Part shown: positions 2,488 through 36,718 of the stretch, one piece after another
Layout: every line of letters begins with the position of its first letter
Numbering within the stretch: the first letter of the stretch is position 1
Source: Planctomycetota bacterium
GTDB taxonomy: Bacteria > Planctomycetota > MHYJ01 > JACPRB01
Assembly (NCBI GenBank): GCA_016209705.1
Contig: JACQVR010000094.1
Coordinates: 64 to 64,063, forward strand
Length of the DNA: 64,000 nt
Direction: 5' to 3'
Position numbers and translations under genes: made by a program
Notes under the pieces: generated by a model
Databases searched by the model: none
Told to the model about the DNA's origin: nothing
What the model saw: the letters and a program-made list of their open reading frames with translations, nothing else

Positions 2488-2988
2488 TTATTTCTTCTTT
2501 TCCCCGTCCTTTTCTTGCGACGGCTCCACGAACGAGACGTCGTGCTTCTTGAGGATGTCCCGGAACTTGGCTTCCAGCTCCGCGGCGGACGTCACGCCCT
2601 TTCTCCCGCGATAGGGAATCGCCTCGTGGATTTTCTTGTCGGGTGAGACGAGCCACAGGATCTGTCCGCCGTTCCAGCCGTCGGTCTCTTTCCAGAGCTC
2701 CGGCTCGATTTTTTCGCCCTTCTTGCGGGGCGTCCGGGGATGCCACGTCAGGACGGGGTAGAAATTCGTTTCGATGACCTTCTTGATCCGTTCGTCGAGA
2801 AGCGAACCGTTCTCGAATTTCTGGCAGGACGGTCAGCGCGGCCATTCTTTGTAGATGAGGACCCATCGCGACGTCTTCTCGTCCTGGGCCTTCTCGAAGG
2901 CCTCCTCGGACGACATCCATTTGATCTCGTCGATCCGATCGCCCGCGGCGACCGCCGCCGCCATGCCCAACCAGAGCATCGTCTTCAT
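2488..2988 (-). CDS. Secreted thioredoxin-fold (Thioredoxin_7/DsbD-gamma-like) protein with an in-frame TGA (complement 2833-2835) at the first position of a U-P-S-C (UxxC) redox motif. Candidate selenoprotein.
   Basis: The gene starts at ATG 2988, preceded by a GGGGG RBS, and encodes a signal peptide MKTMLWLGMAAAVAAG. Translation continues ...IKWMSSEEAFEKAQDEKTSRWVLIYKEWPR-TGA-PSCQKFENGSLLDERIKK... through to TAA at 2488. The segment after the TGA has no start codon of its own. Confidence 0.55.
2795..2816 (-). promoter_or_regulatory. Candidate bacterial SECIS hairpin, 16 nt downstream of the TGA at 2833-2835.
   Basis: Sense strand reads UCGAGAA-CGGUUCGC-UUCUCGA. This is a 7-bp perfect stem whose apical loop contains GGUUC. 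Confidence 0.4.
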
Positions 2989-3157
2989 GATCTACCCCCT
3001 TGAAGTCGTTTCTGGTTATACGGGCGAACTCCGGGATGCGCGCCAAAAGACTTTTCCCCCTGACGAGGGACGCGGGACTTGGGGGGTGGAACGGGCACCT
3101 TCGTCGACTTCGCTCAAGGCACGTCGCCCGCCGGGAAGCCGCTTTTCTTGCGGCGAC

Positions 3158-3976
3158 TCAAACTTCAATGTGCTCCGCGCCGGTGTAGATGTTGAACGCG
3201 TCGGCGCGCAGGAAGCCGACCAGCGTCATCCCGGCCTGCTGGGCTATTTCGACGGCGAGGCTGGACGGCGCCGACACGGCGCAGACGGCGGAGATGCCCG
3301 CCATCATCGCTTTCTGCATGATCTCGAAGCTCGCGCGGCCGCTGACCATGAGGATGTGGCGGTCGAGCGGCACTCTCCCGTTAAGAAACATGGAACCGAT
3401 CGCCTTGTCCGTGGCGTTGTGCCGCCCGATATCTTCCCGCAGGACGAGCAGCGTACCGTGCGCGTCGAAGATCCCCGCCGCGTGAAGGCCGCCGGTGCGC
3501 TCGAACACGGTTTGAGCCTTGCGCAAGGTCTGCCCCAGGGAATAGAAAAACTCCAGCTTCAACCTCAGCTTGGAATTGGTCGGCTTCACTTCCATCTTGA
3601 TGTTTTCGATGGCCGCCTTTCCGCAGATGCCGCAGGAGCTCGTCGCGTAGAAGTTCCGCTTGAGCCGGGAGAGATCCACGGAAACGCCGGCCGCCGGCGT
3701 CACGTTGACGATGTTGCGCAGATCCGGATGCTTTTCGTCCTGGCAATACCGCAAGGCGCCGATGTCGTCGGGTGACTTCAGAATTCCTTCGGTGAACAGG
3801 AATCCGGCGGCCAGATCGAAATCTTCACCCGGCGTGCGCATGGTCACGACGACGGGTTCGTCATTGACGCGAACTTCCAGCGGCTCCTCGACGGCGAGCT
3901 CGTCGAGGTCCTGCTCGTGAGGTATGCCCTGCTCGATCTTCCGAGTGCCGTGCCGGGCGATGCGCGGTGACGTCAT
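3158..3976 (-). CDS. fdhD: Formate dehydrogenase accessory sulfurtransferase FdhD.
   Basis: A GRHNATDKAIG motif is present. The size and sequence are typical of the FdhD/NarQ family. Confidence 0.85.
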   Translation of the reverse strand: MTSPRIARHGTRKIEQGIPHEQDLDELAVEEPLEVRVNDEPVVVTMRTPGEDFDLAAGFLFTEGILKSPDDIGALRYCQDEKHPDLRNIVNVTPAAGVSVDLSRLKRNFYATSSCGICGKAAIENIKMEVKPTNSKLRLKLEFFYSLGQTLRKAQTVFERTGGLHAAGIFDAHGTLLVLREDIGRHNATDKAIGSMFLNGRVPLDRHILMVSGRASFEIMQKAMMAGISAVCAVSAPSSLAVEIAQQAGMTLVGFLRADAFNIYTGAEHIEV

Positions 3977-3996
3977 GTGTTCTCCCGCGCGCCATT

Positions 3997-6246
3997 CTAA
4001 TCAATCTTGGAAATGTCCACCACTACGTTGTAGTCGGGTTCGCACGACACGGGATCGTACCGGCGCGGAATGAGCACGTTCGCTTCCGGCCAATGCAGTT
4101 GCAACGTTCGAGGCCGCACGGGCGCGATGAAGACGCGGCCCATGAACTCGCCGGCACCCGAGCGCAGCCTGACCCGGTCGCCTTCGACGCATCCCAGCTC
4201 GCGCGCGTCTTCGGCGCACATGAAGACTGCCTCGCGGGCCGCCCGTCCCGTCAAAGGATCCCGCCGCGACTGGACCATCGAATTGAATTGCTTGCCGCGC
4301 CGCGTCGTGACCTGGAACTTGCCCTCCGGCAGATCCCGCCTCGGAATCTCCTGGACCCACATCCGGGCGCGTCCCCCGGGCATGCGGTCGAACGTTCCGC
4401 CTTCGAACAGGCGTTCGCCCCCCCATTGGACCGAATCCCCTTCGTTCCGGAGCGACGCGACGCCCTTGTAGAACGGAACCGCCCGCTCGATCTCCTCGCG
4501 CACTTCCTGCGGATGGCGATACGGGACCAGCCGCTCGAACCGGGGATCGACCTTCCGCGCCAGAAGGACGGGGATCTCCCACTCCGCTTTCGCCTCGCCG
4601 ACGCGCGGGCCGGGAACTTCGGGACTGAAGCGGATGCGCCGCTCCGTCGACGTCGCCGTGCAGCCGCCCGGCTGCTCGTAGCGGGTCATCGCCGGCAGGA
4701 GCACGACCAGATCGCCGTCCAGGAGGGTCGAGGTATTCACCACGATGTCTTGGTGCAGGCGCACGCCGATCCGGCCGATCGCTTCGCGGACGTAACGGCG
4801 GTCGGGCATCGTCTCGAGAAGGTTGCCCCCGATGTTGTACAGAAAATCGATCCGTCCCTCATGGGCGGCCTCGATCATGTGCGGCGTCGCCAACCCCCGG
4901 CGCGCGGGCACCGGAGCGCCCCACAGCGATTCCAGTTCCTTCGCCGATTCCGCGGTGATCGGGCGGCCGCCGGGGAACTTGTCCGGAGCCAGTCCCACCT
5001 CCGCGCCGCCCTGCACGCCGCTGTGGCCGCGGATGGCCATGACGCCGCACTTCTCGCGGCCCACCATGCCGCGCGCCAGCGCCAGCGTGCCGATGGAGCG
5101 GACGTTCCGGACGCCGAACTCGGATTGCGTCAGACCCATGCTGTAGACGAAGACGGCGGTCTCGGCCTCCTTGTAGATGGAGGCGAAGCGCGCCATCTCG
5201 GACCGCGGAAGTCCGCTCTCGCGCTCGAGTTCTTCCCACGCCATCGCGTCGAGCCGGGCCATGGACTCCTCGACGCCGGCGCCGTGGCGCTGGAGGAAAT
5301 CGAGGCGGAAGCCGTACATCTCCTTCAGCGCCTTGAGCGTTCCGTTCGCGAACGCGATGTCGCCGCCGATGCGGACGGCATAGTAATCGTCCATGAGGCG
5401 GGTGCCGAAGAGCGCGCTGCCCGCCACCGAGGGCACCCAGTATTTCTCCAGCCCGGGCTCGCGAAACGGGTTGACGACCGCCACCCGCGTGCCCTGCTTC
5501 TTCGCGTAATGGATGTACTTGGTCGTGACCGGCTGGTTGTTGGCCAGGTTCGTGCCCCACAGCACGAGCAGGTCGGTCCCGATGAAATCTTTCAGCGAGC
5601 AGTTCGGCGCGCCGACGCCGAAGATGTCCGCCAAACCGTAGGTGGACGGCGCGTGGCACAGGCGGGCACAGTAGTCGACATGCGGGCTTCCCAGCAGCCG
5701 CGCCACCTTCTGGAAGGTGTAGTAGGCCTCGTTGGTCAGACCGCGGGACGTGGCGAACCACGCCATGCGATCGGGATCGGTCTTCCGGAGTCGTTCCGCG
5801 ACGGTCTCGAGGGCTTCGTCCCAGGATACGCGGCGGAATCCGCGCTCCCCGCGCCGCCGCACGAAGGGATACGGCACGCGGCCGAGCGCCTGGAGCTCTT
5901 CATTGCGCAGCTTCCGAAGCGCCTCGACGTCCTCGAGCACGGCGGGGTCGAAGGCCGGCATCGTATTGAGGCGCAGGAGCCGAAGCCTCGTGGTGCACAG
6001 ATGGACGCCGTTGATGACGTCGTCCTTGAGCCCGTACGGACCCAGCGAGCAGCCGTCGCAGACGCCGTGGCGCAGGATGTTCCACGCGTACTTCAGGCTG
6101 TCGCGGTTCTCCCACGCGACCTTGAGCATTTCCGTGAAATGGCGCGGCTTGCGGCGGGCGCCGATGCCGAATGGCAGCGCTTCCAGGAACGTCCGGGTCG
6201 GCTTTTGGAGCGGCCGTTCCGGCGGCGGTCCGATGCGGGGATTCAT
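3997..6246 (-). CDS. Molybdopterin oxidoreductase alpha subunit, FdhF/YdeP family, Cys-type.
   Basis: The N-terminal Cys cluster reads HGVCDGCSLGP. The active-site region reads RLCHAPS, corresponding to E. coli FdhH V-U-HGPS but with Cys instead of Sec. The preferred start is ATG 6246 (MNPRIGPP); the track start at 6288 is TTG. Confidence 0.8.
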   Translation of the reverse strand: MNPRIGPPPERPLQKPTRTFLEALPFGIGARRKPRHFTEMLKVAWENRDSLKYAWNILRHGVCDGCSLGPYGLKDDVINGVHLCTTRLRLLRLNTMPAFDPAVLEDVEALRKLRNEELQALGRVPYPFVRRRGERGFRRVSWDEALETVAERLRKTDPDRMAWFATSRGLTNEAYYTFQKVARLLGSPHVDYCARLCHAPSTYGLADIFGVGAPNCSLKDFIGTDLLVLWGTNLANNQPVTTKYIHYAKKQGTRVAVVNPFREPGLEKYWVPSVAGSALFGTRLMDDYYAVRIGGDIAFANGTLKALKEMYGFRLDFLQRHGAGVEESMARLDAMAWEELERESGLPRSEMARFASIYKEAETAVFVYSMGLTQSEFGVRNVRSIGTLALARGMVGREKCGVMAIRGHSGVQGGAEVGLAPDKFPGGRPITAESAKELESLWGAPVPARRGLATPHMIEAAHEGRIDFLYNIGGNLLETMPDRRYVREAIGRIGVRLHQDIVVNTSTLLDGDLVVLLPAMTRYEQPGGCTATSTERRIRFSPEVPGPRVGEAKAEWEIPVLLARKVDPRFERLVPYRHPQEVREEIERAVPFYKGVASLRNEGDSVQWGGERLFEGGTFDRMPGGRARMWVQEIPRRDLPEGKFQVTTRRGKQFNSMVQSRRDPLTGRAAREAVFMCAEDARELGCVEGDRVRLRSGAGEFMGRVFIAPVRPRTLQLHWPEANVLIPRRYDPVSCEPDYNVVVDISKID

Positions 6247-6273
6247 AACGCAATTGTAAGAATCACCTTCAGA

Positions 6274-6298
6274 ACCACCAAGGCACAAGGTTGGTGGT
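6274..6298. repeat. Small hairpin ACCACCAAGGCACAAGGTTGGTGGT (8-bp stem). The CACCAAGG motif family is shared with the MITE-like element at 18515-18718.
   Basis: A perfect inverted repeat accaccaa/ttggtggt with a 9-nt loop. It lies in the divergent intergenic region between ydeP and the antitoxin gene. Confidence 0.4.
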
Positions 6299-6364
6299 GA
6301 AGAATGATCCGGGGTAAACGTTCATCTTGATCCTCGTCCCGAATGGTTATAACATAGTTCTTAT

Positions 6365-6604
6365 ATGATTCGCACGCAACGCATCCAAAAGGTCGGCAAC
6401 AGCGCGGCCGTGCTGCTGCCCAAGGATTGGCTGCGGGGGCACCGTCTTCGAGCGGGGGCCAAGGTGACGGTCGAGGTCTCTGAGACCCGGCTGACCATCT
6501 ATCCCGAGCTGCAGGAGCGCGAAATCCGTGTCAACGCCGAATTCGGCCGCAGGGTGGACCGTTTTCTTCGAAAGCATCGAGCCATCCTGAAACGGCTGTC
6601 CTGA
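6365..6604 (+). CDS. AbrB/MazE/SpoVT-type antitoxin.
   Basis: Contains KVGNSAAVLLPK, a looped-hinge-helix signature. It is 79 aa and its stop overlaps the start of the Doc toxin gene. Confidence 0.75.
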   Translation: MIRTQRIQKVGNSAAVLLPKDWLRGHRLRAGAKVTVEVSETRLTIYPELQEREIRVNAEFGRRVDRFLRKHRAILKRLS

Positions 6605-6993
6605 TGCCGATCTTCTACCCCCCGGCCGTGGCCTTGCTCTATCTCCACGAGCAAGTCATCCGCGAATTCGGAGGATCCGGCGGATTGCGGGACCGCGGAG
6701 CTCTCGAAGGCGCAGCCGCTCGTCCCCGCGCGACGTTCGGCGGCCACCCCTTGTACGCGACGCTCCCCGAAAAGGCGGCGGCGCTCCTCGAGTCGATTTG
6801 CGTCAATCATCCTTTTGTCGACGGAAACAAACGCGTCGCGTTTTCCGCCGCGGGTCTTTTTCTCCAATACAACGGCCGCACGCTTGCGTGCGAAGAGGAC
6901 GAGGCGGTCGAATTCATGCTCGGCGTCGCGGCGGGGAAGCTCAGGAAAGAAGAGATCCGCATCTGGCTCCAGGAACACTCCCGCCCGCTCTGA
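6604..6993 (+). CDS. doc: Doc (death-on-curing) family toxin with a Fic-fold kinase.
   Basis: The HPFVDGNKRVA motif is present. It is 129 aa and translationally coupled (TGATG) to the upstream antitoxin. Confidence 0.85.
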   Translation: MPIFYPPAVALLYLHEQVIREFGGSGGLRDRGALEGAAARPRATFGGHPLYATLPEKAAALLESICVNHPFVDGNKRVAFSAAGLFLQYNGRTLACEEDEAVEFMLGVAAGKLRKEEIRIWLQEHSRPL

Positions 6994-7012
6994 GAGCGCT
7001 GCGAAAGTCCAT

Positions 7013-8409
7013 TCAACGGTCGACCTTGAAGTCCTGAGCGATGACGTTGTACCCCTTCGCGGCATCCCAGGTCTGCTCGTTGGCGAGCCGGATGGCGTAC
7101 TCGGGCCGGTGCCGCAGAGCGTCGGCCTCGTCGGGCAGCCACAACGCGAGGAGATAGACGCCGGCCGGCACGAGCGCTTGGAGGCCGGCCTCGATCTTGA
7201 TGTCGCCCGGCCGCCACGTTCGGGGATCCTCGGAGTCAAGTCGGACCTCGTATCGGCGGATCTGGTTCTCCAGAACAAGGTACACCGGGCGAGCGTTATA
7301 CGGCGCGGCGAATCCGTCGTTGCGCATGCGGATGGAAAGGTAGGCGGTATCTCCGGAGCGTACGGAGGCGGGCATCTCGGAATCCACGAACATGAAGCGG
7401 TATCCCAGGCGCGAGCGGATCTCGGGCATAACCCCCTGTTCCTGCCAGGAGGCCAGAACCTCGGCGTGATAATGGGCGTTGACGAATGACCAATTCAGCC
7501 GCCTCATTTCGTGGATGGCGTTCGGGCCGTCGCTGCGCGGCGGATTATAGTTGGCGGTCTCTCCACCGACCGGAAGGTATCGGGAATCCTGGGCCAGCCA
7601 ATCCTTCCAATCTTCGACGGGCGAAGGGTACGTTCCATAATCGGTGCTGCTGGCCAGAAAGGCGTCGTTGTGATGGCCGGTGCGGGCGCGGCGACTTCCA
7701 TCGTGCCCTTCCGATTTCGTGAGCGCCCCGGCTTCGAAAATCTCGTTCTTGAAGTTCGGTTTCCGGATTTGAACCATGCGAGAGGGAGGCAAGGCGTCCA
7801 GGAGAGCGAACAGAATATCCCGCCGGTCTCTGACGTTGTCCAGGCCGTTCGTGGAGCCGTGCCACTCTCCCCACGCGCCGATGAATCCGGCCTGAAGGAC
7901 GGCGATCACGTCGGCGTGCTCCCAGAGGAGACCGGTCAGTTGAGCGATGTGCCCCAGCACGCGATCCTTCGGCGCGTCCGGATCCCCGATGTACGAACTG
8001 TAATAGAAGCAAGGATCACCTTGATTCCGGCGGCGCGAACCGCGTCCAGACCCGCAGAAACCTTGTTGATGAAGGCGGGATCGATATCGGCGGCGCGATA
8101 AGACTTCAGGTTCACTCCCGCATAGGCGAGAGATCGCCCTCTTTGGCGGACGAACGCGAAATCGCGGTCGTTGACGAGGTCGATCCAATCGAAGAACCCC
8201 CGCTCCGGATTGACGATCTCCTCCGCCGTCGCCTCATATGTGCGCAAGACAAGCGCTTCGCCCAGCGGGAGGAATGGATTGAAATCCGGAAGCATCGGGT
8301 CGCCGGCCGCTCGATGGGCCACGCCAAGCGGGGTTTGGCCAGAGTCGCAACCGACCGCAGCGAGTGAAATCCCAAGCAGGAGGAACGCGGAAATACAACG
8401 ACAGGGCAC
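7013..8409 (-). pseudogene. DUF4874/DUF4832-type glycoside-hydrolase-like lipoprotein interrupted by a frameshift near 8015-8035.
   Basis: The N-terminal frame carries a lipoprotein signal (LLLGISLAAVGC) and ...RAAGIKVIL. The C-terminal frame continues (C)FYYSSYIGDPDAP...FIGAWGEWH. A single missing nucleotide in ATCCTTGCTTC would restore KVILRFYY, matching the family consensus. Confidence 0.55.
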
Positions 8410-8631: not shown

Positions 8632-8637
8632 ACATAG

Positions 8638-10826: not shown

Positions 10827-10840
10827 AAATAAAGATCCGG

Positions 10841-20212: not shown

Positions 20213-20440
20213 AAGCTTCGACCTCCTTCGGCCTGCGGCCCCACCGCCGGTCTATGGGAACACTCCGGCTGTCTTCGTGGAAAATCGGAAACGCCCGGCG
20301 CAAGGTCCTCTCAGTTAGTACGAGATGAGCTCGGTTTGTTCGAACGTATTTGAGAAAAAAGCTTGAACGTAGGCCGCAACCGGCTTCCCCTTCCGAAACG
20401 TGACTTCGAGATAGCGGTCTTTCATGGGTCAAAACCTATC

Positions 20441-21262
20441 CTACCGGAGGTGACGCGCTTCGGCGGTCTCGGGAGCGACATCGAACTCCACGAGCACCGG
20501 CAGGTGATCCGAGGCGACCCGCGTCAGCCGCGTCCGCAGCACTTCCGCGCGCTTGACGCTGATTTCCGGGCTGACGAACACGTGATCGTAGCGCACGAAC
20601 GGCCACAGGCTCGGCCATGTGGGACGCGACGTGCCGCCGTTCACGATCTGCGCGTCGCGCAAGGTGCCGTTGATGAGCCGATAGACCGGCGATCGCGCGG
20701 TCGCGTTGAAATCTCCGCAGAGGATGCGCGGGAACGCGCACGCGGCGTGCGTCAGCCAATCCTTCCCGCACAAGTCGGTGGCTTGAAGCATCCGCTCGCC
20801 GCGAACCAGTCCAAGATGCGTGTTGATCACCTGAACATCCCGGTTTCCGACCTTGACCGAAGCCCACAGGGCGGCGCGGCGCTGCACCCGAAACACGGGC
20901 GAGGTCGGCAGCAGCGCGCTGCGGACCATGCGCAAGGGAAGGCGGCTCAAGATGGCGTTGCCGAAACGCGCCCCGTCCCGCTCGCGGGCCGGATGGTAGA
21001 GGAACTCCATCCCCAGGAGCTCCGCCAGACGGGAAGGCTGGTCGAGGTGATCCGTTCTCAGATGGTCGGTTTCGAGCTCCTGCAGCGCCACGATGTGCGG
21101 ATCGGCCTCGCGGATCGCCGCCGCCACGCGGGCGGGATCATGCCGCCCGTCGACGCCGACGCAACGATGCACATTGTAGGTCAGAATTCGAAAGGTAGGA
21201 CGCGGCGCCGGAACGGGCGCCGGGAATGAAGCCGGAAGCGGCTTCGACAGAATGGATATCAT
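20441..21262 (-). CDS. Endonuclease/exonuclease/phosphatase (EEP) family protein.
   Basis: TYNVHRCVG, LQELE and DHLPVLVEF motifs are present. The overlapping plus-strand ORF 20363..21229 is antisense artefact. Confidence 0.8.
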   Translation of the reverse strand: MISILSKPLPASFPAPVPAPRPTFRILTYNVHRCVGVDGRHDPARVAAAIREADPHIVALQELETDHLRTDHLDQPSRLAELLGMEFLYHPARERDGARFGNAILSRLPLRMVRSALLPTSPVFRVQRRAALWASVKVGNRDVQVINTHLGLVRGERMLQATDLCGKDWLTHAACAFPRILCGDFNATARSPVYRLINGTLRDAQIVNGGTSRPTWPSLWPFVRYDHVFVSPEISVKRAEVLRTRLTRVASDHLPVLVEFDVAPETAEARHLR

Positions 21263-22306: not shown

Positions 22307-23062
22307 ATGAGAACGCTGCTTCGGCTCAGCTTCGGGGTGGCGCTGACCGCGTCAGGCTGCCATTTCCGATCGCAGGATGACCCAGCCCAGGAGCCCCGCG
22401 CGGCGGCCGCAGCCGTCGCGAACATCCCGGCTCTCGACCGACAAATCCCCGATGTTCTCGAATCCGCCACATTCGCGGTCGGCTGATTCTGGGATGCGGA
22501 CGCCCGGTTCGGGACCGTCCCCGGCGTCGTGCGCACGCGCGTGGGATACGCCGGCGGAACGCTCGCGAATCCCGCCTATGACCACATAGGCGACCATCTC
22601 GAGGCGATCCAGATCGACTACGATCCGTCGCGAGTCACGTACGAGGATCTCCTGGATCTCTTCTGGGAGATCCATGATCCCTGCCCGCCGCGCTGGACCC
22701 GCCAGTACATGTCCGTCATCTTCACGCACAACGAGACGCAACGGGAACTCGCGGAGGGATTCAAGGCGCGCGAGGACGCCCCGGGCGCGATCATTCCGAC
22801 CAAGATCCTCCCGTTGACCCGGTTTTATCCGGCGGAGGACCGTCATCAAAAGTACGTGCTGCGTCAGATAGAAGAGCTGATGCGGGAGTTCCGCGCCATG
22901 TATCCCAGGGAGGCCGACTTCGTGAATTCCACGGCGGCCGCGCGCGTCAACGGATTCGTGGCCGGCCTCACCCTAGCGGAACGGATCGAAGCGGTGATCG
23001 ATCAATTAGGGCTTTCTCCCGAGGGTCGGCGACTGCTGCGATCCTTCGCCCTTCCGCAGTGA
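22307..23062 (+). CDS. msrA: Peptide methionine sulfoxide reductase MsrA lipoprotein with in-frame TGA (22484-22486) at the catalytic Cys position. Candidate Sec-MsrA.
   Basis: A GGGAGG RBS precedes signal/lipobox MRTLLRLSFGVALTASGC. Translation continues ...ESATFAVG-TGA-FWDADARFGTVPGVVRTRVGYAGG... (GCFWG becomes GUFWD). The rest of MsrA, including DPCPPRW, is in frame through to 23062. Confidence 0.7.
22498..22520 (+). promoter_or_regulatory. Candidate bSECIS hairpin, 11 nt downstream of the msrA TGA.
   Basis: GGACG-CCC-GGUUC-GGG-AC-CGUCC folds as a bipartite stem with an apical loop GGUUC. Confidence 0.45.
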
Positions 23063-30433: not shown

Positions 30434-30456
30434 TCGCCTTGGCGACCCCGCGCGCT

Positions 30457-30539: not shown

Positions 30540-30548
30540 GGAGGGAGC

Positions 30549-30815
30549 ATGGAGTTCGACCCGAAGACGCTGGTCAAGACGCCGGCGTTCGCGATCGCCG
30601 GGGGGTTCGTGCTGGGGGCCGCGGTGTTCGAGCTGATTCGGGGCGCGATCAACCATTTGATCGTCCCCTTCTTCAGCATCGTCGGCGACGGCGGGGGAAT
30701 ACGGATCGGCGACAGCATTTACATCGGGTGCGGCGGGTTCATTGGCGCGGTCATGGTGTTCGTGGTCGCGACCGCCGTCGGAGTGCTGATGATCCGGGTC
30801 GCGGCGAAGGATTGA
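30549..30815 (+). CDS. Small MscL-family-like membrane protein (88 aa, lacking the C-terminal cytoplasmic helix).
   Basis: AFAIAGGFVLGAAVFELIRGAINHLIVPFFSIV resembles MscL TM1 and the periplasmic loop. An RBS AGGAGGGAG lies upstream. Confidence 0.5.
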   Translation: MEFDPKTLVKTPAFAIAGGFVLGAAVFELIRGAINHLIVPFFSIVGDGGGIRIGDSIYIGCGGFIGAVMVFVVATAVGVLMIRVAAKD

Positions 30816-30852
30816 CCCCCTCGTCCGCCTCCGATAGCCTTGCCCGCGCTCC

Positions 30853-32424
30853 ATGATTCCCTCCCCGGCCCTATGCGCGCTTTCCGAAGCCGACGGCGCC
30901 TCGTCTTCCTGGCTTCAGCTCCTCTACCTCGCGGCGGCGGGCCTGCTGGTGCTGCTGAACGCGTTTTTCGTTCTCGCGGAGTTCGCCATCGTCAAGATTC
31001 GGGCGACCCAGATGCTCGAACTGGCGGAACGCGGCAACGCGAGAGCCGCGCTCGCCACCTCGATCGTCAAGCGCCTCGACGCCTACCTCTCCACCTGCCA
31101 ACTCGGCATCACCGTCGCGAGCCTGGGGCTGGGGTGGATCGGAGAACCCGCGTTCGCCACGTTGCTGAAACCTTGGTTGGACGCCCTTGGAATCTGGTCC
31201 CGGACGGTGACGACGTCGGTCGCCTTCGCGATCTCGTTCGCATTCGTCACCTTCATCCATGTCGTGATCGGCGAGCTGGCCCCCAAATCGATCGCGATCC
31301 GCCGGACCGAATGGGCCACCCTCTTCGCGGCGCGCCCCCTCCACTGGTTTTACCGGGTCACCTTCCCCGCCATGTGGCTCTTGAACGTGACCAGCAACGC
31401 CGTCCTCCGGCTGCTGCGCATCCCTCCGGTCACCGACATGGAACTGGCTCATTCCGAGGAAGAACTTCGCATGATCCTGGGCGCGTCCCACGAGAAGGGC
31501 GCCGTCACGCTCAATCGCCTGCTCATGATGGAAAACGTCCTCGACTTCGGAACGTTGACCGTGGCGGACGTCATGACGCCGGCCGAGCGGGTGATTTCCC
31601 TGTCCGCGGCCGCGCCGTGGTCGGAAACTTTCGACAAGATCCGGAAATCGCTCCACTCCCGCTATCCCCTGGACTTCGGGACCTCGAAGAAACGGGATCG
31701 CATGATCCATCTCAAAGACCTGCTGATCGCCGTGGCCGCCGGAAAACCGCCGGACTTGACCTCCATCGCCCGTCCGGTGCGCGCCGTCCGTCCCGACCTC
31801 TCCCTCGAGGACCTCCTCCAGCACTTCTATCGGAACCGCAGCCATCTCGCGATGGTGGAGGACGACGCGGGCCGGTTCCTGGGACTGGTCACCATCGAAG
31901 ACGTCATCGAAGAACTGATCGGAACCGTTCGCGACGAATTCGAGACGGTCAAGGAGTTCAATCTCTCCGACTTGGTCCCGCCGGGAGCGATCGCGCTCGG
32001 CCTCGAACCGATGACCAAAGAGCAGTCGATCCGAACCCTGATCGAAAGGCTGGCTCAGAAGCATCCGGAGTTGAACGTCCCGTTGATCGTCTCCACGATC
32101 CTTCGCCGAGAAACGCTCGCATCGACGGGTCTGGGTGAAGGCATCGCCATCCCGCACAGCCGCATTCCAGCCCTCTTGCGTCCGATGGGCGCGATCGGCC
32201 AATGGCCCCAGGGAATCGAATTTCAGGCGCTCGACGCCCACCCCGTCTACTTGATGTTCCTGATCCTGACGCCCGTCCATGACGAGGGCGTCCACGTGCA
32301 CATCCTGGGAAAGATCAGCGCCTTGCTCTCCAGCGATTACCTTCGCGAACGCCTCCGCCACGCCCAAAGCGTCGAGGAGGTACGGGAGGTGTTGCGGATC
32401 TCCGACCAGTCGCTGCCGGCGTGA
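30853..32424 (+). CDS. CNNM/DUF21 membrane domain plus CBS pair fused to a C-terminal PTS EIIA(Ntr/fructose)-type domain.
   Basis: DUF21 TM helices and a CBS pair are followed by GLGEGIAIPHSRIPAL (EIIA active-site His region). This replaces the usual CorC_HlyC terminus. Confidence 0.7.
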   Translation: MIPSPALCALSEADGASSSWLQLLYLAAAGLLVLLNAFFVLAEFAIVKIRATQMLELAERGNARAALATSIVKRLDAYLSTCQLGITVASLGLGWIGEPAFATLLKPWLDALGIWSRTVTTSVAFAISFAFVTFIHVVIGELAPKSIAIRRTEWATLFAARPLHWFYRVTFPAMWLLNVTSNAVLRLLRIPPVTDMELAHSEEELRMILGASHEKGAVTLNRLLMMENVLDFGTLTVADVMTPAERVISLSAAAPWSETFDKIRKSLHSRYPLDFGTSKKRDRMIHLKDLLIAVAAGKPPDLTSIARPVRAVRPDLSLEDLLQHFYRNRSHLAMVEDDAGRFLGLVTIEDVIEELIGTVRDEFETVKEFNLSDLVPPGAIALGLEPMTKEQSIRTLIERLAQKHPELNVPLIVSTILRRETLASTGLGEGIAIPHSRIPALLRPMGAIGQWPQGIEFQALDAHPVYLMFLILTPVHDEGVHVHILGKISALLSSDYLRERLRHAQSVEEVREVLRISDQSLPA

Positions 32425-32428
32425 CGCT

Positions 32429-32803
32429 TCAGAAGAGATCCTTGGCCGCCGCGGCGCACAGTGCCGCGCCGATCAGGTAGACCGCCGCGCCGACGAGCAG
32501 GACGGCGCGACCGAGTCCCAAAACGTCGGAGCGAAAAAGGCCGGCCGCCAGGAAGGCCGCGCCGGTCGCGGCGAAGACGACTTGACTGATCGCCCACCGG
32601 CGGAGGGTGAGTTCCTGCGACAGCGCCTCGACTCCGTAGCCGATGAACGCGAGGCCGCCGGCCAGGATCGCCGCGATCTTCAACCACCACGGCAGCGTCT
32701 CCGCGGGCACGTTCCATAACAGGGCCCCGGCCGCCAGGACCAGTCCGAACCAACACACGGCGGCCGTGACGGACGTGGCTCGATCCGCGTCGCGAAAGGA
32801 CAT
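32429..32803 (-). CDS. Small hypothetical membrane protein (4 predicted TM segments).
   Basis: The ORF is hydrophobic and 124 aa long. No recognisable motif was found. Confidence 0.45.
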   Translation of the reverse strand: MSFRDADRATSVTAAVCWFGLVLAAGALLWNVPAETLPWWLKIAAILAGGLAFIGYGVEALSQELTLRRWAISQVVFAATGAAFLAAGLFRSDVLGLGRAVLLVGAAVYLIGAALCAAAAKDLF

Positions 32804-32924
32804 GACGCTACTATACCCGCGGAACGCTCCGCGCCGTTCGCAAATCCGAGACCGCGTGCGGACACAAATTCTTGCGCTTCATCCTGTTCTCACTACAATG
32901 TGCGCGCGAGCCGCGCGCACTCTT

Positions 32925-34037
32925 ATGGGACTATCCGACGACAACGTGCTTCAACCGCTGAACGCCGCGAATCGCAGGCAGAAGAAAGCGCTCTTTCGGC
33001 AACCCGTCCGGCCCCTCGCCCTGCGCCCGAACACCACCGTCGCCGACCTGGTCGAGGGCATGGCGGGCATGTCCATCCAGGCGCGCAACATCGGGCAGTG
33101 CGCGCAGGTCCTCGAGCGCATGCTCAAAGACCCGGCTCGCCCGACGGTTTTTCTCGGACTGGCTGGTCCGTTGATCGCGGCGGGCCTGCGCAAAGTCATC
33201 CGCGACCTCATCGAAGCGGGCGTCGTGGACGTCGTCGTCTCCACCGGCGCGATCTTGTATCAGGATATTTATCAGGCGCGCGGCTTCCGCCATTATCAGG
33301 GCGACGTGGATGCGGACGATTCGGCGTTGCGCGATCTGTACATCGACCGCATCTACGATACCTACGTCGACGAGGAGAAATTCTGGGATACCGACGTGTG
33401 GTGCGGGGAGCTGGCGAACGAGCTCCCGCCCGGCCCTACCTCCAGCCGGGCGTATCTGGATTTCGTCGCGTCGCGCCTTGAGGACGATGAGTCGATTCTG
33501 GTCACCTGCCGGAAGCACGGCGTCCCGGTTTTCTGCCCCGCGCTCAACGACAGTTCGATCGGCATCGGACTCACCCACCACCGCCATCTCGCGCATCGGG
33601 AAGGCCGCACGCCGCTGGCGATCGACTCGATCCGCGACAACTACGAGCTGACCCAGATCGTCGTGCAATCGAACATGACGTCCGCCATCTACATCGCCGG
33701 AGGCGTTCCCAAGAACTACATCAACGACTCCGTGGTCATGAGCTACATCTTCGGCCTGGAGCGCGGCCATGAATACGCGGTTCAAGTGACCACGGCCGTG
33801 ACCGCGGACGGCGGGCTGTCCAGCTCGACACTTTCCGAAGCCCGCTCGTGGGGCAAGATCAAGAAGGAAGCCAAGTTCGCGATGGCGTGGGTCGAGCCCA
33901 GCGTCGCCTTGCCGCTGCTGGCGGGCTATGTGCTCCAGCGGAACCTGGCGAAGGGGCGCGGCCGGCTGCACCTCACGTGGGACGGCGAGATCCTCCGCGA
34001 GTTGCGCGCGGACCCGCGAAAGCACCGCGGCCGCTGA
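32925..34037 (+). CDS. Deoxyhypusine synthase-like (homospermidine-synthase-related) protein.
   Basis: DHS-family signature segments are present (GLAGPLIAAGLR, VSTGAILYQD, IAGGVPKNY). ATG at 32925 lies within track ORF 32643. Confidence 0.75.
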   Translation: MGLSDDNVLQPLNAANRRQKKALFRQPVRPLALRPNTTVADLVEGMAGMSIQARNIGQCAQVLERMLKDPARPTVFLGLAGPLIAAGLRKVIRDLIEAGVVDVVVSTGAILYQDIYQARGFRHYQGDVDADDSALRDLYIDRIYDTYVDEEKFWDTDVWCGELANELPPGPTSSRAYLDFVASRLEDDESILVTCRKHGVPVFCPALNDSSIGIGLTHHRHLAHREGRTPLAIDSIRDNYELTQIVVQSNMTSAIYIAGGVPKNYINDSVVMSYIFGLERGHEYAVQVTTAVTADGGLSSSTLSEARSWGKIKKEAKFAMAWVEPSVALPLLAGYVLQRNLAKGRGRLHLTWDGEILRELRADPRKHRGR

Positions 34038-34045
34038 ACCTTCGA

Positions 34046-34990
34046 ATGGCCAGAAAGACGCGATTCCTGAACATCCTCGTCACCGGCGGCGCCGGATTCA
34101 TCGGATCCAACCTCGTCCAGGCGATCCAGGCCCGCTGGCCGTCGGCCCTGCTGACCGTGGTCGACGACTTTCGCTCGGGACACTTCAAGAATCTCACCGG
34201 CTTCCGCGGAGACGTGGTGGCAGCGGACATCGGAGCCTGGGAGTCGTCCGAGAAATACGACTGCATCTTCCATCTGGCCTCGATCACCGACACCACGATC
34301 AGCGATCAATTCCGGATGGTGCGGGACAATGTGGAAGGCTTCCGCAGCGTCTTGAGGATGGCCCGCAGAATGAAGGCGATCGTGGTGTACGCCTCCAGCG
34401 CCGCGACGTACGGGCAGGCGAACGAGCGCGCGTTGGAAACGTCTCCCGCCCTTCCGACGACCGCGTACGCGTTTTCGAAGGTCGTCCTGGATCACCTGGC
34501 GGAGCGCGCGCGCTGGGACGGAATGCGCGTCGAGGGGGTTCGGTACTTCAACGTCTACGGCCCCCACGAGGCGCACAAGGGGGCGGCGGCCAGCATGATC
34601 TATCAGCTCGCCGCGCAGATGCGGAAGGACCGCCGGCCGCGAATCTTCAAGCACGGCGAGCAGCGGCGCGATTTCATCTTCGTGGACGACGCCGTGCATG
34701 CCACGCTCCTGGCGGCCGAGCGTGGAAAGAACGCCGTCTACAACGTCGGCACCGGACGCGCCCGGTCGTTCAACGAAGTCATCGACGCGCTGAACTCGGC
34801 CCTGGGAACGCGCCTGGAGCCGGAGTACTTCGACAATCCCTACGATTTCTATCAGGACTACACCGAAGCCAACATCGCCCGGGCCCGCGCCGACCTCGGC
34901 TTCACCGCCGCCTTCGGCCTCGAAGACGGAGTGCGCGAATACCTCCAGCGCCTCGGATGGACGCGCGCCGCCCATCGCCTGTTACAATAA
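34046..34990 (+). CDS. NAD-dependent epimerase/dehydratase (HldD/ADP-heptose-6-epimerase-like SDR).
   Basis: Rossmann motif ILVTGGAGFIGSNL is present, with YAFSK in the catalytic YxxxK position. Confidence 0.8.
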   Translation: MARKTRFLNILVTGGAGFIGSNLVQAIQARWPSALLTVVDDFRSGHFKNLTGFRGDVVAADIGAWESSEKYDCIFHLASITDTTISDQFRMVRDNVEGFRSVLRMARRMKAIVVYASSAATYGQANERALETSPALPTTAYAFSKVVLDHLAERARWDGMRVEGVRYFNVYGPHEAHKGAAASMIYQLAAQMRKDRRPRIFKHGEQRRDFIFVDDAVHATLLAAERGKNAVYNVGTGRARSFNEVIDALNSALGTRLEPEYFDNPYDFYQDYTEANIARARADLGFTAAFGLEDGVREYLQRLGWTRAAHRLLQ

Positions 34991-35012
34991 GTTTTGAAAA
35001 TTATTTGTAACA
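34980..35012. promoter_or_regulatory. AT-rich operator B. It is one GTTACA-N22-TGTAACA dyad with a TTTTGAAAA core, overlapping the epimerase stop and directly upstream of selenoprotein candidate 3.
   Basis: Sequence is TGTTACAATAAGTTTTGAAAATTATTTGTAACA. It follows the same grammar as operator clusters A and C. Confidence 0.45.
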
Positions 35013-35074
35013 CCTACGAAGGGCCGCCCGGCCGGTGTCTAAGCTGGAGATCCCAACTCCAGGAGATGAACGTC

Positions 35075-36718
35075 ATGAAAAAATTAGGTGGAGCCCTTCT
35101 TGCGGGCCTGGTGTGCTTGAGTCCTCTTTGGGCTCAGCAGGAAGATCTGAGGTCTATCGAAAAGGACCTCAAACAGGGACTTAAGGCCCAAGCCGAACGG
35201 GAAGTGGAAAAAGCCGTTCAAGCGCTGCACAAAATCAACACGCCGGAAGCGGTAAAAGTCCTGCTGAGAGGGTTGCGGGAACGCCTGCTCCCCAGCACGT
35301 ACTGGATCCTGGTCCGCGGAGCCGCCGCCTTCTCTTCCCCCGACGCCTTGGGCGAAGTCACCGGCTACATCCTCAAATACAAGCAGACTCCCGTGGCGCG
35401 CGACATGGCGGCCGCGTTGCATGGAAATTGGACGCCCGCGTGCGAAGGCGCGCTCATCGCGATTCTGAACAAAGGGACGCCCGAACTCCAAGCGCTCGCC
35501 ACCGAGCACCTGATGGAAGTCGGCGCCAGGGATGCGGTGGAAGCGGTCCTCGCGCTGCTGAAAAAAGGCCGTCCCGGCCCGGACCTGTCCCGCAGACTGT
35601 TCCGCGTTCTCTCCGTGATCACCATCGGCGACTACGGAGACAGCCTTTCCAACTGGGAGGGCTGGTGGGAGGCGAACAAACACAAGGACTGGGGCGAACT
35701 CAAAGCCAAAGAAGGCCCCGGCTATCGCAGCGGAGGAGGAACCGTCACCGACAGCCTCGACAAAGCGCGCGATAAGGAAGTCGAGCAGCTCAAGAAAGGG
35801 AAAGTCCTCGTGCTGGGCGCGGGTAACAAATGCAAGGACGGGAAAAACCACGATCTGGATCGTATCGACTCGCTCATCAAGAAGATGGATCTTCAGGTCG
35901 ACTTCATCGACAAGATCGAGTTCTGCAAACCGTCATTCAAAGTCGACGATTACCTCTCCATCCTCTGCAACTGCACGTTCATCGAGGAACACTGCATCTG
36001 CCCGACTTGCAAACGCGGGCCGCCCGGAGACAAGCGCCGATTCCAGTGAGCGGGCTGCGACAAGCATGAAATAGTACGGTACGTACTAGATGAGGCCGGG
36101 CTGAACAAGATCCGCAAATATGTCGACGACGGGGGATATCTCTTCACCGAAGACTGGTGTCTCAAGGAAATCCTGGCGGCCAAGTTCAGCGAATTCGTCA
36201 ATCTGGGGCCGTATCTTCCCGAGATGAACGTCCCCATCTTCCCCAAACCGGGCGCCGGAACCCATCCCTACCTGCGGCGCATTTTCACGCGCCATCCGAA
36301 AGACCTCCGGCGCGGAGAAACGGGCACCGAGGAAGAGTTCGAACGGCTCACGCACGAGTGGAAGATCGACAACGAGAGCCCAGCGATTCGGATCACGAAC
36401 AAGCAGGCCGTCACCGTGCTGGTCTACTCCACGGAGGTGGGCAAGAAAGCGGGAGCGGAAGGAAGCGACGCGGTCGCGATCACGTTCGCCGTCGGCGCGC
36501 GGGGACCCGAGGCTAAAGATCCGGTGGCGACTGGCAAACCCATCGAGCAGGACCGGGCCAAGATGAGCGGCGGGCGGGTCCTGCACGTCATGAGCCACTT
36601 CGGCAAGCAGAAATCGGTCTCCGACGAGTACACGATCCAGAACCTGCTGCTGAACTTTCTGATCGAAGCCAGCGAGCGCCGCGGGTTTCAGAAGGAAGCG
36701 GCTCAGAAGAAGAAATGA
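35075..36718 (+). CDS. Secreted HEAT-repeat protein with a C-terminal Cys-rich GATase1/DUF4159-like region, read through an in-frame TGA (36047-36049) at a U-A-G-C (UxxC) motif. Candidate selenoprotein.
   Basis: RBS AGGAG precedes signal peptide MKKLGGALLAGLVCLSPLWA and HEAT-like repeats. Translation continues ...CNCTFIEEHCICPTCKRGPPGDKRRFQ-TGA-AGCDKHEIVRYVLDEAGLNKIRKYVDDGGYLFTEDWCLKEIL... in the same frame with no further stop until 36718. The segment after the TGA has no in-frame ATG until 36224, which would cut into the conserved GGYLFTEDWC block. Confidence 0.5.
36072..36088 (+). promoter_or_regulatory. Candidate bSECIS hairpin, 22 nt downstream of the TGA at 36047.
   Basis: UAGUAC-GGUAC-GUACUA is a 6-bp stem with apical loop GGUAC. 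The other two candidates carry GGUUC. Confidence 0.35.

What the first reader, a model, noticed from the sequence alone, without database searches (positions are those of the whole stretch)
2795..36088. All three UGA-proximal hairpins share a GGU(U/A)C apical loop
Independent of the protein chemistry, the three hairpins have similar geometry. They lie at 2795-2816 (minus strand), 22498-22520 and 36072-36088. Each has a 5-7 bp stem closed by C:G and a 5-nt loop GGUUC, GGUUC or GGUAC. They start 16, 11 and 22 nt after their UGA. A conserved GU in the apical loop at this distance is the defining feature of bacterial SECIS elements. The two other in-frame TGAs in the window (the sigma remnant at about 45234 and the NRDE gene at 59881) lack both this loop and any Cys-replacement logic.
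Basis: seen in the sequence. Interest (0 to 1): 0.65.

Follow-up and report, generated by a model that had tools for sequence, protein, structure and literature searches.

The report
Selenocysteine-insertion hairpins after three UGA codons
Three genes of this Planctomycetota genome fragment carry an in-frame UGA followed by a small hairpin with a GGU(U/A)C tip; these are ordinary bacterial selenocysteine-insertion signals, they show that the genes are wrongly cut in two in public annotation, and a fourth such gene was overlooked.

Summary
Hairpins at 2816-2795 (-), 22498-22520 (+) and 36072-36088 (+) exist. They start 16, 11 and 22 nt after an in-frame TGA and carry C|GGUUC|G, C|GGUUC|G and C|GGUAC|G tips. 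Hairpins with this tip are rare here: 5 in 128 kb of both strands, and 3 of them are these sites.

They fit the published bacterial SECIS consensus: loop N1-G-[G/U]-N-N2, 16-37 nt spacing, free energy about -7.5 kcal/mol or lower.

Relatives support function:
- **MsrA:** 49 of 58 related loci have TGA at the catalytic Cys. Their hairpin shows nearly frozen synonymous sites and compensatory changes.
- **HEAT/Cys-cluster protein:** Cys is invariant at the TGA column. TGA orthologues carry stronger hairpins than Cys orthologues, with different stems.
- **Thioredoxin-like gene:** TGA and hairpin are kept in an orthologue.

Two corrections. GGU(U/A)C is not a lineage rule, since orthologues use AGUUU, CGUGA, CGUGC, AGGUC and AGUCU; only G-U is common. 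The NRDE gene's TGA (59883-59881) does align with Cys in 37 homologues and is conserved, so it is probably a fourth selenoprotein gene.

This is a known kind of element with new members. No Sec machinery lies in the window, and nothing was tested experimentally.

The parts
2795..2816 (-). SECIS-like hairpin 1: UCGAGAAC-GGUUC-G(C)UUCUCGA. The loop GGUUC is at 2808-2804, 24 nt after the UGA.
   Evidence: The orthologue L009 keeps it with an A-to-G change that gives a G.U pair. GGUUC is read here as GGU-UCG (Gly-Ser), a different frame from sites 2 and 3.
2833..2835 (-). In-frame TGA (residue 52) of the thioredoxin-like gene, motif W-P-R-U-P-S-C.
   Evidence: A TGA at the same place is seen directly in L009. 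The P0055 contig (no DNA returned) has a 52-aa ORF ending where the window's TGA would fall. The U aligns with the first Cys of CPYC in thioredoxin 2lst_A (E 0.11), and the protein hits Pfam Thioredoxin_7.
2488..2988 (-). Gene 1: secreted thioredoxin-fold protein of 166 residues when read through the TGA.
   Evidence: Both halves have coding-like GC3.
22498..22520 (+). SECIS-like hairpin 2: GGACGCCC-GGUUC-GGG(AC)CGUCC. The loop is at 22506-22510, 19 nt after the UGA.
   Evidence: Homologous hairpins occur in 49 TGA-type MsrA loci, with frozen synonymous sites and compensatory changes.
22484..22486 (+). In-frame TGA at the catalytic Cys of MsrA (G-U-F-W-D).
   Evidence: The Sec form GUFWG/H is described in PMC13188914.
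22307..23062 (+). Gene 2: methionine-S-sulfoxide reductase MsrA, 251 residues when read through.
   Evidence: Pfam PMSR E 3.9e-39; TIGR00401 above its cut-off.
36072..36088 (+). SECIS-like hairpin 3: UAGUAC-GGUAC-GUACUA. The loop is at 36078-36082, 28 nt after the UGA.
   Evidence: TGA orthologues carry hairpins at the same place with different stems: CCCACAC-GGUAC-GUGAUGGG, CCCCACAC-GGUUC-GUGUUGGGG, GAGCACG-AGUUU-CGUGCUC and CACAUACC-CGUGA-GGUAUGUG.
36047..36049 (+). In-frame TGA (F-Q-U-A-G-C) in the Cys cluster of the HEAT-repeat protein.
   Evidence: All 48 homologues that reach this column have Cys there. Six database proteins stop exactly before it.
35075..36718 (+). Gene 3: 547-residue secreted HEAT-repeat and Cys-cluster protein, found only in Planctomycetota. 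Public annotation ends it at the TGA (P0001, 324 aa).
59881..59883 (-). In-frame TGA of the NRDE/TANGO2-like gene (C-R-A-L-G-U).
59833..59847 (-). Candidate SECIS of the NRDE gene: CGGCC-GGU-GGCCG, or alternatively GCCGG-UGG-CCGGC. It starts 33 nt after the UGA, and the loop lies 38-40 nt away.
   Evidence: The stretch CGGCCGGUGGCCGG is identical in four TGA-type sequences (window, L151, L152, L154). The single Ala-type control L153 has GUC in place of GUG. This evidence is weak, because the hairpin is largely forced by the peptide R-P-V-A-G in GC-rich codons.

Best explanation
The three hairpins are bacterial selenocysteine insertion sequences (bSECIS). They lie inside the coding sequence just 3' of a UGA. 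While the mRNA is translated, the hairpin tip would bind the C-terminal domain of the elongation factor SelB, which carries Sec-tRNA(Sec). That tethers SelB to the ribosome as the UGA reaches the A site, so Sec is inserted instead of release factor 2 ending the chain. The exposed G-U sits in a pentaloop N1-G-U-N-N2 whose first and last bases can pair, closed by C:G.

The products would be:
- a Sec-type MsrA (GUFWD);
- a secreted thioredoxin-fold protein (WPR-U-PSC);
- a secreted HEAT-repeat protein with a Sec in a Cys/His cluster (FQ-U-AGC).

**Shown here:** the hairpins, their rarity, their fit to the consensus, the Cys/Sec correspondence, and conservation of TGA plus hairpin in relatives, with RNA-level constraint in the MsrA family.

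**Inferred:** SelB binding and actual Sec insertion.

The identity GGU(U/A)C in all three is best read as three instances of the commonest consensus loop, not as a special signal. Orthologues work with other loops that keep only the G-U.
For: **1. Fit to the consensus** as quoted in PMC13188914.
[quoted passage not shown] GGUUC and GGUAC fit exactly.
- Spacing of 16-37 nt; here 24, 19 and 28 nt.
- MFE of -7.5 kcal/mol or lower; here -7.5/-8.2, -12.2/-16.6 and -7.9.

**2. Rarity.** 5 C-GGUWC-G hairpins in 128 kb, and 3 of them follow these TGAs. A looser N1-G-U-N-N2 scan yields no further coding-like TGA candidate.

**3. MsrA.**
- 49 of 58 related metagenomic loci have TGA at the GCFW Cys.
- In 42 distinct sequences the tip is CGGUUCG 31 times, CAGUUCG 6, CAGUUUG 2, CGGUACG 1 and CGUUUCG 1.
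- Third-position entropy is 0.28-0.37 bits in the five hairpin codons, against 1.6-2.0 bits in flanking codons. The invariant Gly inside the stem is GGG in 40 of 42; two invariant or near-invariant Gly outside it use all four codons.
- Three stem pairs show changes on both sides, and 0 of 500 shuffles reach that.
- The 9 Cys-type loci show no such sequence.

**4. Gene 3.**
- Cys is invariant in the 48 homologues that reach the column, and six proteins stop exactly there.
- The best hairpin 6-60 nt downstream has median -11.6 kcal/mol in 11 TGA forms against about -6.4 in the 66 sequences grouped as Cys forms. Two of those 66 were TGA forms misfiled by an offset error, which works against the difference. 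Mann-Whitney p = 3e-4.
- Stems differ completely between orthologues, while a G-U loop stays.

**5. Gene 1.** TGA and hairpin are kept in L009 at 58% protein identity, with a G.U-preserving change.

**6. Reading frame.** The motif is read in different frames: Gly-Ser in gene 1, Arg-Phe-Gly in gene 2, Arg-Tyr-Val in gene 3. It is therefore not one shared peptide.

**7. Comparison with E. coli.** The E. coli fdhF SECIS has G23/U24 in its loop and sits 11 nt from the UGA (PMC8659212). Site 2 has G24/U25 and also starts 11 nt from the UGA.
Against: - No selA, selB, selD or tRNA-Sec lies in the 64 kb. The rest of the genome could not be read.
- Folding energies of sites 1 and 2 are no better than shuffled sequence.
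- The general descriptor is met at 27% of random codons.
- Rfam gives no SECIS match.
- Gene 1 has no Cys-type close homologue. The nearest full-length relatives have Asn or Ser at the column, so its Cys/Sec logic rests on family-level alignment only.
- One TGA orthologue subclade of gene 3 (L003/L073) has no Sec-specific hairpin that I could recognise.
- Within each family the hairpin codons also encode conserved residues. For genes 1 and 3, protein constraint and RNA constraint are only partly separated.
- Sequences within a family are related, so the p-values overstate independence.
Confidence: 0.87

Rival explanations
1. The pentaloop GGU(U/A)C closed by C:G is itself a specific, lineage-typical determinant for this organism's SelB. 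It would be a narrower rule than the general bSECIS consensus and could be used to list the whole selenoproteome.
For: All three window sites share CGGUWCG. The same 7-mer dominates the Sec-MsrA family, 31 of 42. It recurs in four gene-3 orthologues and in the gene-1 orthologue. Nearly all the loops seen are pentaloops closed by C:G.
Against: Orthologous TGA genes in other Planctomycetota use AGUUU, CGUGA, CGUGC and AGGUC. A WUGPC gene in L001 uses AGUCU. The probable fourth Sec gene of this same window (NRDE) has a GGU/UGG triloop at 38-40 nt. The MsrA loci come from many unrelated metagenomes, so the motif is family-wide, not lineage-specific.
Confidence: 0.12
2. The hairpins are by-products of GC-rich codon usage over conserved peptides. 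On this view the TGAs are nonsense mutations, assembly errors or pseudogene lesions, and there is no recoding.
For: z-scores for sites 1 and 2 are about 0. 27% of random codons are followed by a consensus-type hairpin. The NRDE hairpin is largely dictated by the peptide R-P-V-A-G. The window does contain one truncated gene with an internal TGA, the sigma remnant.
Against: The same TGA recurs in independent assemblies: 49 MsrA loci, at least 9 distinct gene-3 loci, L009 for gene 1 plus a stop at the matching place on the P0055 contig, and 3 NRDE loci plus 15 fragment proteins. Both halves of each gene keep coding-like GC3 and homology. Each TGA sits at a Cys column. Synonymous sites are frozen inside the MsrA hairpin only.
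Confidence: 0.03
3. UGA is recoded, but without SelB and SECIS. Examples would be context-dependent readthrough by a near-cognate or suppressor tRNA inserting Trp, Cys or Gly, with the hairpin acting only as a ribosome-pausing element.
For: No Sec machinery was seen in the window. Downstream structures are known to stimulate readthrough in other systems (my own knowledge, not tested here).
Against: Many genes of the window plainly end in TGA, for example MsrA itself at 23060-23062, so there is no global reassignment. The recoded sites are exclusively redox or metal-type Cys columns, which is the hallmark of Sec. Sec-type MsrA with GUFW is an established selenoprotein family.
Confidence: 0.03

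Closest known systems
Bacterial SECIS consensus model (bSECISearch; Zhang & Gladyshev 2005, as summarised in PMC13188914)
   Same: A stem-loop inside the ORF just 3' of the Sec-UGA. The loop of 3-9 nt has G in its first two positions and mostly follows N1-G-[G|U]-N-N2 with N1:N2 pairable. Spacing is 16-37 nt and MFE is -7.5 kcal/mol or lower. All three sites satisfy all four rules.
   Different: Nothing essential differs. Sites 1 and 3 only just reach the energy threshold. In this 63% GC genome the model alone is unspecific, being met at 27% of random codons.
E. coli fdhF SECIS (minimal 17-nt upper stem-loop, 11 nt from the UGA, with G23/U24 in the loop and a bulged U17; PMC8659212)
   Same: A G-U is exposed at the hairpin tip. 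Site 2 starts 11 nt after the UGA and places G-U at nt 24-25. The loop begins GGU, as in the fdhF GGUC (the fdhF loop sequence is from my own knowledge).
   Different: There is no bulged U on the 5' side of the stem. The bulges here are on the 3' side (C in site 1, AC in site 2) or absent (site 3). The loop is a pentaloop, not a tetraloop. Sites 1 and 3 lie 5-9 nt further from the UGA.
Sec-containing MsrA (GUFWG/H active site; Clostridium/Alkaliphilus oremlandii and others)
   Same: Gene 2 has U in place of the catalytic Cys of GCFW. It belongs to a large set of TGA-type MsrA genes with one conserved SECIS.
   Different: The window has GUFWD instead of GUFWG/H. The lower stem of its hairpin is in a different register (GGACG/CGUCC after a 2-nt bulge) from the majority form ACUCCC/GGGAGU.
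Thioredoxin-fold UxxC selenoproteins (Trx-, Prx-, Grx- and DsbA-like; NCBIfam VPGUxxT family NF041383)
   Same: Gene 1 has U at the first position of a thioredoxin-fold CxxC and a SECIS right behind it.
   Different: It scores 24.6 bits against a 275-bit cut-off for NF041383, so it is not a member. Only a handful of relatives exist in 1.8 billion cluster representatives, none with Cys at the column.

Membership tests
Bacterial SECIS element (consensus model) | Stem-loop located within the ORF immediately 3' of an in-frame UGA | tested here: met
   the hairpins start 16, 11 and 22 nt after in-frame TGAs. Both flanks are coding-like.
Bacterial SECIS element (consensus model) | Apical loop of 3-9 nt on an upper stem of 4-16 bp | tested here: met
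   The loop is 5 nt, or 3 nt if the loop's own G:C pair forms. The stems have 8, 8 and 6 pairs, and two of them carry a 1-2 nt bulge.
Bacterial SECIS element (consensus model) | G in the first two loop positions, mostly N1-G-[G|U]-N-N2 with N1:N2 able to pair | tested here: met
   GGUUC, GGUUC and GGUAC: N1 = G, then G-U, N, and N2 = C (rule quoted).
Bacterial SECIS element (consensus model) | 16-37 nt between the UGA and the apical loop | tested here: met
   24, 19 and 28 nt. The NRDE candidate lies at 38-40 nt, just outside the range.
Bacterial SECIS element (consensus model) | MFE of -7.5 kcal/mol or lower | tested here: met
   Site 1: -7.5 to -8.2. Site 2: -12.2 to -16.6. Site 3: -6.4 for the bare hairpin and -7.9 with two outer pairs. 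Sites 1 and 3 are borderline.
Bacterial SECIS element (consensus model) | The UGA corresponds to Cys in homologues (Cys/Sec pair) | tested here: met
   Gene 3: Cys is invariant in the 48 homologues that reach the column. MsrA: catalytic Cys of GCFW. Gene 1: met only at family level (CPYC of 2lst_A, Thioredoxin_7); close relatives have Asn or Ser.
Bacterial SECIS element (consensus model) | Structure conserved in orthologues beyond what the protein requires | tested here: met
   MsrA: frozen synonymous sites and compensatory pairs. Gene 3: different stems, stronger hairpins in TGA forms than in Cys forms, p = 3e-4. Gene 1: a single orthologue only.
Bacterial SECIS element (consensus model) | Binds SelB and directs Sec insertion | not testable with these tools
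   This needs a binding assay, a reporter assay or proteomics.
Bacterial SECIS element (consensus model) | The genome encodes selA, selB, selD and tRNA-Sec | tested here: inconclusive
   None is present in the 64-kb window (ARAGORN; Pfam). The source contig is 126 kb, and neither its other half nor the rest of the MAG could be fetched.
E. coli fdhF-type minimal SECIS | Bulged U on the 5' strand of the upper stem (U17), needed for SelB binding in E. coli | tested here: not met
   The bulges are on the 3' strand (C; AC) or absent. Feature as described in PMC8659212.
E. coli fdhF-type minimal SECIS | Upper stem-loop starts 11 nt after the UGA, with G23/U24 in the loop | tested here: inconclusive
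   Met by site 2 (11 nt; G24/U25). Sites 1 and 3 start at 16 and 22 nt.
Rfam SECIS families | Match to a curated covariance model | tested here: not met
   There is no SECIS match at gathering score or at E up to 10 over the whole window. From my own knowledge, Rfam's SECIS models are eukaryote-type, so this says little.

The most novel reading that the evidence does not exclude
The hairpins themselves are conventional. The novel reading concerns what they mark. Up to three of the four UGA genes in this window may belong to selenoprotein families that are not in current catalogues:
- an NRDE/TANGO2-like protein with a C-x4-U motif;
- a Planctomycetota-only secreted HEAT-repeat protein whose Cys/His cluster carries U, or in some relatives a U-x-U pair read with one downstream hairpin;
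- a rare secreted thioredoxin-fold WPR-U-PSC protein with no Cys-type close relative.

A related possibility is that Planctomycetota SelB prefers a pentaloop C|N-G-U-N-N|G.
Probability: 0.4. Interest if true: 0.5.

Novelty: new member of a known kind. Interest (0 to 1): 0.3.

Why it matters
The practical gain is correct annotation. Public records cut these genes at the UGA: P0001 is the 324-aa stub of a 547-aa protein, and the NRDE and thioredoxin-like relatives appear as fragments in the databases. Recognising the SECIS restores four full-length redox proteins in a Planctomycetota MAG.

The analysis also gives a usable lesson. In GC-rich genomes the general bSECIS descriptor is nearly uninformative, being met at 27% of random codons. 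Cys/Sec homology together with synonymous-site conservation is what discriminates.

The families marked by the hairpins (NRDE/TANGO2-like, HEAT/Cys cluster with UxU variants) may extend the catalogue of bacterial selenoproteins. That is a separate finding and needs its own checks.

Tried and rejected
- **Rfam.** Gathering thresholds and E up to 10 over the whole window gave only tRNA-Arg and noise, with no SECIS model match.
- **Thermodynamic z-scores.** Not informative for sites 1 and 2.
- **General bSECIS descriptor as a discriminator.** Rejected, because 81 of 300 random in-frame codons pass.
- **Custom covariance model.** I considered one with leave-one-family-out testing and did not build it. 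The only alignment route is MAFFT, which cannot place the differing bulges. A model trained on orthologues would rediscover the window sites by homology, and the motif carries too little information for 128 kb.
- **Cys-type homologues of gene 1.** A word-indexed search gave 2 fragment hits. It gave 13 hits, and the full-length ones have Asn or Ser at the column.
- **Extra hairpins.** Those at 32010(-) and 8042(-) were checked. The first is antisense to a CNNM gene, and the second is not preceded by an in-frame TGA.
- **Sigma-factor TGA at 45234(-).** The gene lacks its N-terminal third and abuts an AAA_14/DUF4143 gene. The TGA is followed directly by ATG, and its column is Cys in one 26%-identical sigma factor. 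Left unresolved; most likely a remnant.
- **NRDE hairpin control.** Only one non-TGA control sequence could be fetched, because the second look-up returned no DNA. Its SECIS assignment therefore stays weak.
- **tRNA T-arm resemblance.** GGUUCG resembles a tRNA T-arm, but ARAGORN finds no tRNA at any site.

Full report
**Source and setting.** The window has 63% G+C. The N-terminal 324 residues of its gene 3 are identical to an NCBI protein of a Planctomycetes MAG (locus tag HY716_12140, contig 125,981 bp). The only RNA gene found is tRNA-Arg.

**The observation.**
- Site 1, minus strand: TGA at 2835-2833, 16 nt, then UCGAGAAC-GGUUC-G(C)UUCUCGA at 2816-2795.
- Site 2: TGA at 22484-22486, 11 nt, then GGACGCCC-GGUUC-GGG(AC)CGUCC at 22498-22520.
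- Site 3: TGA at 36047-36049, 22 nt, then UAGUAC-GGUAC-GUACUA at 36072-36088.

RNAfold places each hairpin in the minimum-energy fold. It also pairs the first G with the last C of the loop, leaving a GUU or GUA triloop.

**Is it more than chance?** Folding energy does not show it. The z-scores are -0.9, +0.2 and -2.5. I implemented the published general bSECIS descriptor, and it passes at 81 of 300 random in-frame codons of Pfam-supported genes in this window.

The specific tip does show it.
- CGGTWCG occurs 40 times on both strands. Only five copies sit on a stem of at least 6 bp, and three of those five are the reported sites. The first-order Markov expectation is 2.6 per 128 kb.
- To allow for post-hoc choice of the motif, I tested random triples of coding segments. 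4.4% share some 7-mer with one free position. Requiring that 7-mer to be a hairpin tip in all three adds roughly 0.05 cubed (2 of the 37 CGGTWCG copies outside the three sites).
- The two other hairpins of this kind are not preceded by a usable TGA.

**The three genes.** Read through the TGA, they are as follows.
- **Gene 1** (2988-2488, minus strand) is a 166-residue secreted thioredoxin-fold protein with W-P-R-U-P-S-C. It hits Pfam Thioredoxin_7, and the U aligns with the first Cys of CPYC in thioredoxin 2lst_A.
- **Gene 2** (22307-23062) is MsrA with G-U-F-W-D. It hits Pfam PMSR at 3.9e-39 and TIGR00401 above its cut-off.
- **Gene 3** (35075-36718) is a 547-residue secreted HEAT-repeat protein whose C-terminal half starts with a Cys/His cluster, H-C-x-C-x-x-C ... 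F-Q-U-A-G-C.

Both sides of each TGA have the coding signature of this genome, high GC3 and low GC2.

**Evidence from relatives: gene 3.**
- Cys is invariant in the TGA column in all 48 homologues that reach it. Six proteins, including the public annotation of this very gene, stop exactly one residue before it.
- DNA of the truncated forms shows TGA followed at the same distance by hairpins with unrelated stems: CCCACAC-GGUAC-GUGAUGGG, CCCACGC-GGUAC-GUGAUGGG, CCCCACAC-GGUUC-GUGUUGGGG and CACAUACC-CGUGA-GGUAUGUG.
- A scan of one genome per species returned 79 loci, nearly all from Planctomycetota MAGs. It added GAGCACG-AGUUU-CGUGCUC, AGCAC-AGGUC-GUGCU and several CGUGC loops.
- The best hairpin 6-60 nt downstream has median -11.6 kcal/mol in 11 TGA forms against about -6.4 in the 66 sequences grouped as Cys forms (Mann-Whitney p = 3e-4). 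This holds even though two TGA forms were misfiled into the Cys group by an offset error of mine.
- One TGA subclade (L003/L073) has no Sec-specific hairpin that I could recognise.

**Evidence from relatives: MsrA.**
- A metagenome scan gave 62 loci. Of the 58 in which the motif could be read, 49 have TGA at the GCFW Cys and 9 have TGC or TGT.
- The 42 distinct TGA sequences align without gaps. Their tips are CGGUUCG (31), CAGUUCG (6), CAGUUUG (2), CGGUACG (1), CGUUUCG (1) and one AT-rich outlier.
- Third-codon-position entropy is 0.28-0.37 bits across the five codons that form the hairpin and 1.6-2.0 bits in flanking codons. The invariant Gly inside the stem is GGG in 40 of 42. Two invariant or near-invariant Gly outside the hairpin use all four codons about equally.
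- Three of seven stem pairs show changes on both sides, for example CUCCC/GGGAG to CUGCC/GGCGG. None of 500 column shuffles reaches that.

This is direct evidence of selection on the RNA, not only on the peptide.

**Evidence from relatives: gene 1.** The family is tiny. The word-indexed search found two proteins (P0055, P0056), both made only of sequence downstream of the TGA position. The orthologue L009 has W-P-R-TGA-S-S-C followed by UCGAGAGC-GGUUC-GCUUCUCGA. That is the same hairpin with one A-to-G change that keeps a G.U pair. A further contig has a 52-aa ORF ending at the same place. The exhaustive HMMER search found a few more distant relatives with Asn or Ser at the column and none with Cys. 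For this gene the Cys/Sec logic is therefore at family level only.

**Not a shared peptide.** GGUUC/GGUAC is read as Gly-Ser (GGU UCG) in gene 1, Arg-Phe-Gly (cGG UUC Ggg) in gene 2 and Arg-Tyr-Val (cGG UAC Gua) in gene 3. The common motif is an RNA feature.

**Comparison with what is known.** The consensus model of bacterial SECIS elements, as restated in a 2026 review, requires four things (PMC13188914):
- a 3-9 nt loop on a 4-16 bp stem;
- a G in the first two loop positions, mostly N1-G-[G|U]-N-N2 with N1 and N2 pairing;
- 16-37 nt between the UGA and the loop;
- an MFE of -7.5 kcal/mol or lower.

GGUUC and GGUAC are exact instances of the 'mostly' pattern. The spacings are 24, 19 and 28 nt. 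The energies are at or just beyond the threshold for sites 1 and 3 and well beyond it for site 2.

The E. coli fdhF element has its minimal stem-loop 11 nt from the UGA, with G23/U24 in the loop and a bulged U17 (PMC8659212). Site 2 matches the spacing and the G-U position. None of the three has a 5'-side bulged U.

Sec-type MsrA (GUFWG/H) is an established family. NCBIfam has no selenoprotein model that the other three proteins reach.

First, GGU(U/A)C is not a conserved signature of the lineage. Orthologues and a neighbouring WUGPC gene in L001 (AGUCU loop, 18 nt after the UGA) use other pentaloops. What is common is G-U at loop positions 2-3, usually with a closing C:G.

Second, the NRDE/TANGO2-like gene (60162-59461, minus strand) is not an unrelated case.
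- The Pfam match covers only profile positions 1-95 before the TGA, and the rest of the family sequence continues in frame after it.
- 37 close homologues have Cys in the TGA column, within a C-R-x-L-x-C motif.
- 15 database proteins are C-terminal fragments beginning right after it.
- Three fetched loci have TGA at the same codon.
- Thirty-three nucleotides downstream, all four TGA sequences share CGGCCGGUGGCCGG, a GC hairpin with a GGU or UGG tip. The peptide R-P-V-A-G largely forces it, and I obtained only one non-TGA control, which has GUC for GUG. The SECIS assignment there is tentative, and its loop lies 38-40 nt from the UGA.

The sigma-factor TGA at 45234 (minus strand) lies in a gene that has lost its N-terminal third next to an AAA_14/DUF4143 gene and a Fic gene. 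It is probably a lesion. One 26%-identical sigma factor does have Cys in that column.

**Limits.**
- No Sec machinery gene lies in the window, and I could not read the rest of the genome.
- SelB binding and Sec insertion are inferred.
- Sequences within each family are related, so the tests overstate independence.

**Verdict.** The interpretation as bacterial SECIS elements is well supported, with confidence about 0.87. The element is of a known kind. The added value is correct annotation of three, probably four, selenoprotein genes. It may also point to selenoprotein families that current catalogues do not list.

Noticed in passing
window 59461-60162 (-), TGA at 59883-59881: An NRDE/TANGO2-like gene has an in-frame TGA that aligns with Cys in 37 close homologues (motif C-R-x-L-x-C). 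The TGA is conserved in three fetched orthologous loci, and 15 database proteins are fragments that start just after it. It is probably a fourth selenoprotein gene. The family is not named in the 2026 selenoproteome review, and NCBIfam has no model for it.
   Followed up: partly
L089, L112, L130, L145 (gene-3 homologues; e.g. L112 around 470-480): Some Planctomycetota homologues of the HEAT/Cys-cluster protein have two in-frame stops one codon apart (P-*-x-*); both were confirmed as TGA in L112 and L130. They match the C-x-C of Cys-type relatives. In three of the four, one CGUGC-loop hairpin follows.
   Followed up: partly
L001 about 20330-20470 (-): A TlpA/AhpC-like protein in a related MAG has W-U-G-P-C. 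A CGGC-AGUCU-GCCG hairpin follows 18 nt after the UGA. Public annotation splits it into two genes.
   Followed up: partly
window 45037-45482 (-), TGA at 45234-45232: This is an ECF sigma factor remnant. It lacks the first ~60 residues, including the start of region 2, and has an internal TGA followed directly by ATG. It abuts an AAA_14/DUF4143 ATPase (45511-46701, minus strand) and a Fic gene (46869-48425, plus strand), which suggests disruption by an inserted element. The TGA column is Cys in one distant sigma homologue (L151).
   Followed up: partly
window 3158-6288 (-): FdhD (3158-3976) and an FdhF/YdeP-family molybdopterin oxidoreductase (3997-6288, uninterrupted ORF with no TGA) lie directly upstream of the thioredoxin-like selenoprotein gene on the same strand.
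   Followed up: no
window 33848-36718 compared with L001-L005: In five orthologous loci an AhpC/TSA peroxiredoxin gene sits between the epimerase gene and the HEAT/Cys-cluster gene. In the window that peroxiredoxin gene is absent.
   Followed up: no
window 55821-55948 (+): Overlapping weak Rfam matches to unrelated small-RNA families (BjrC68, rnk leader, BSnc120), all far below their gathering scores. This is probably just a structured intergenic stretch.
   Followed up: no
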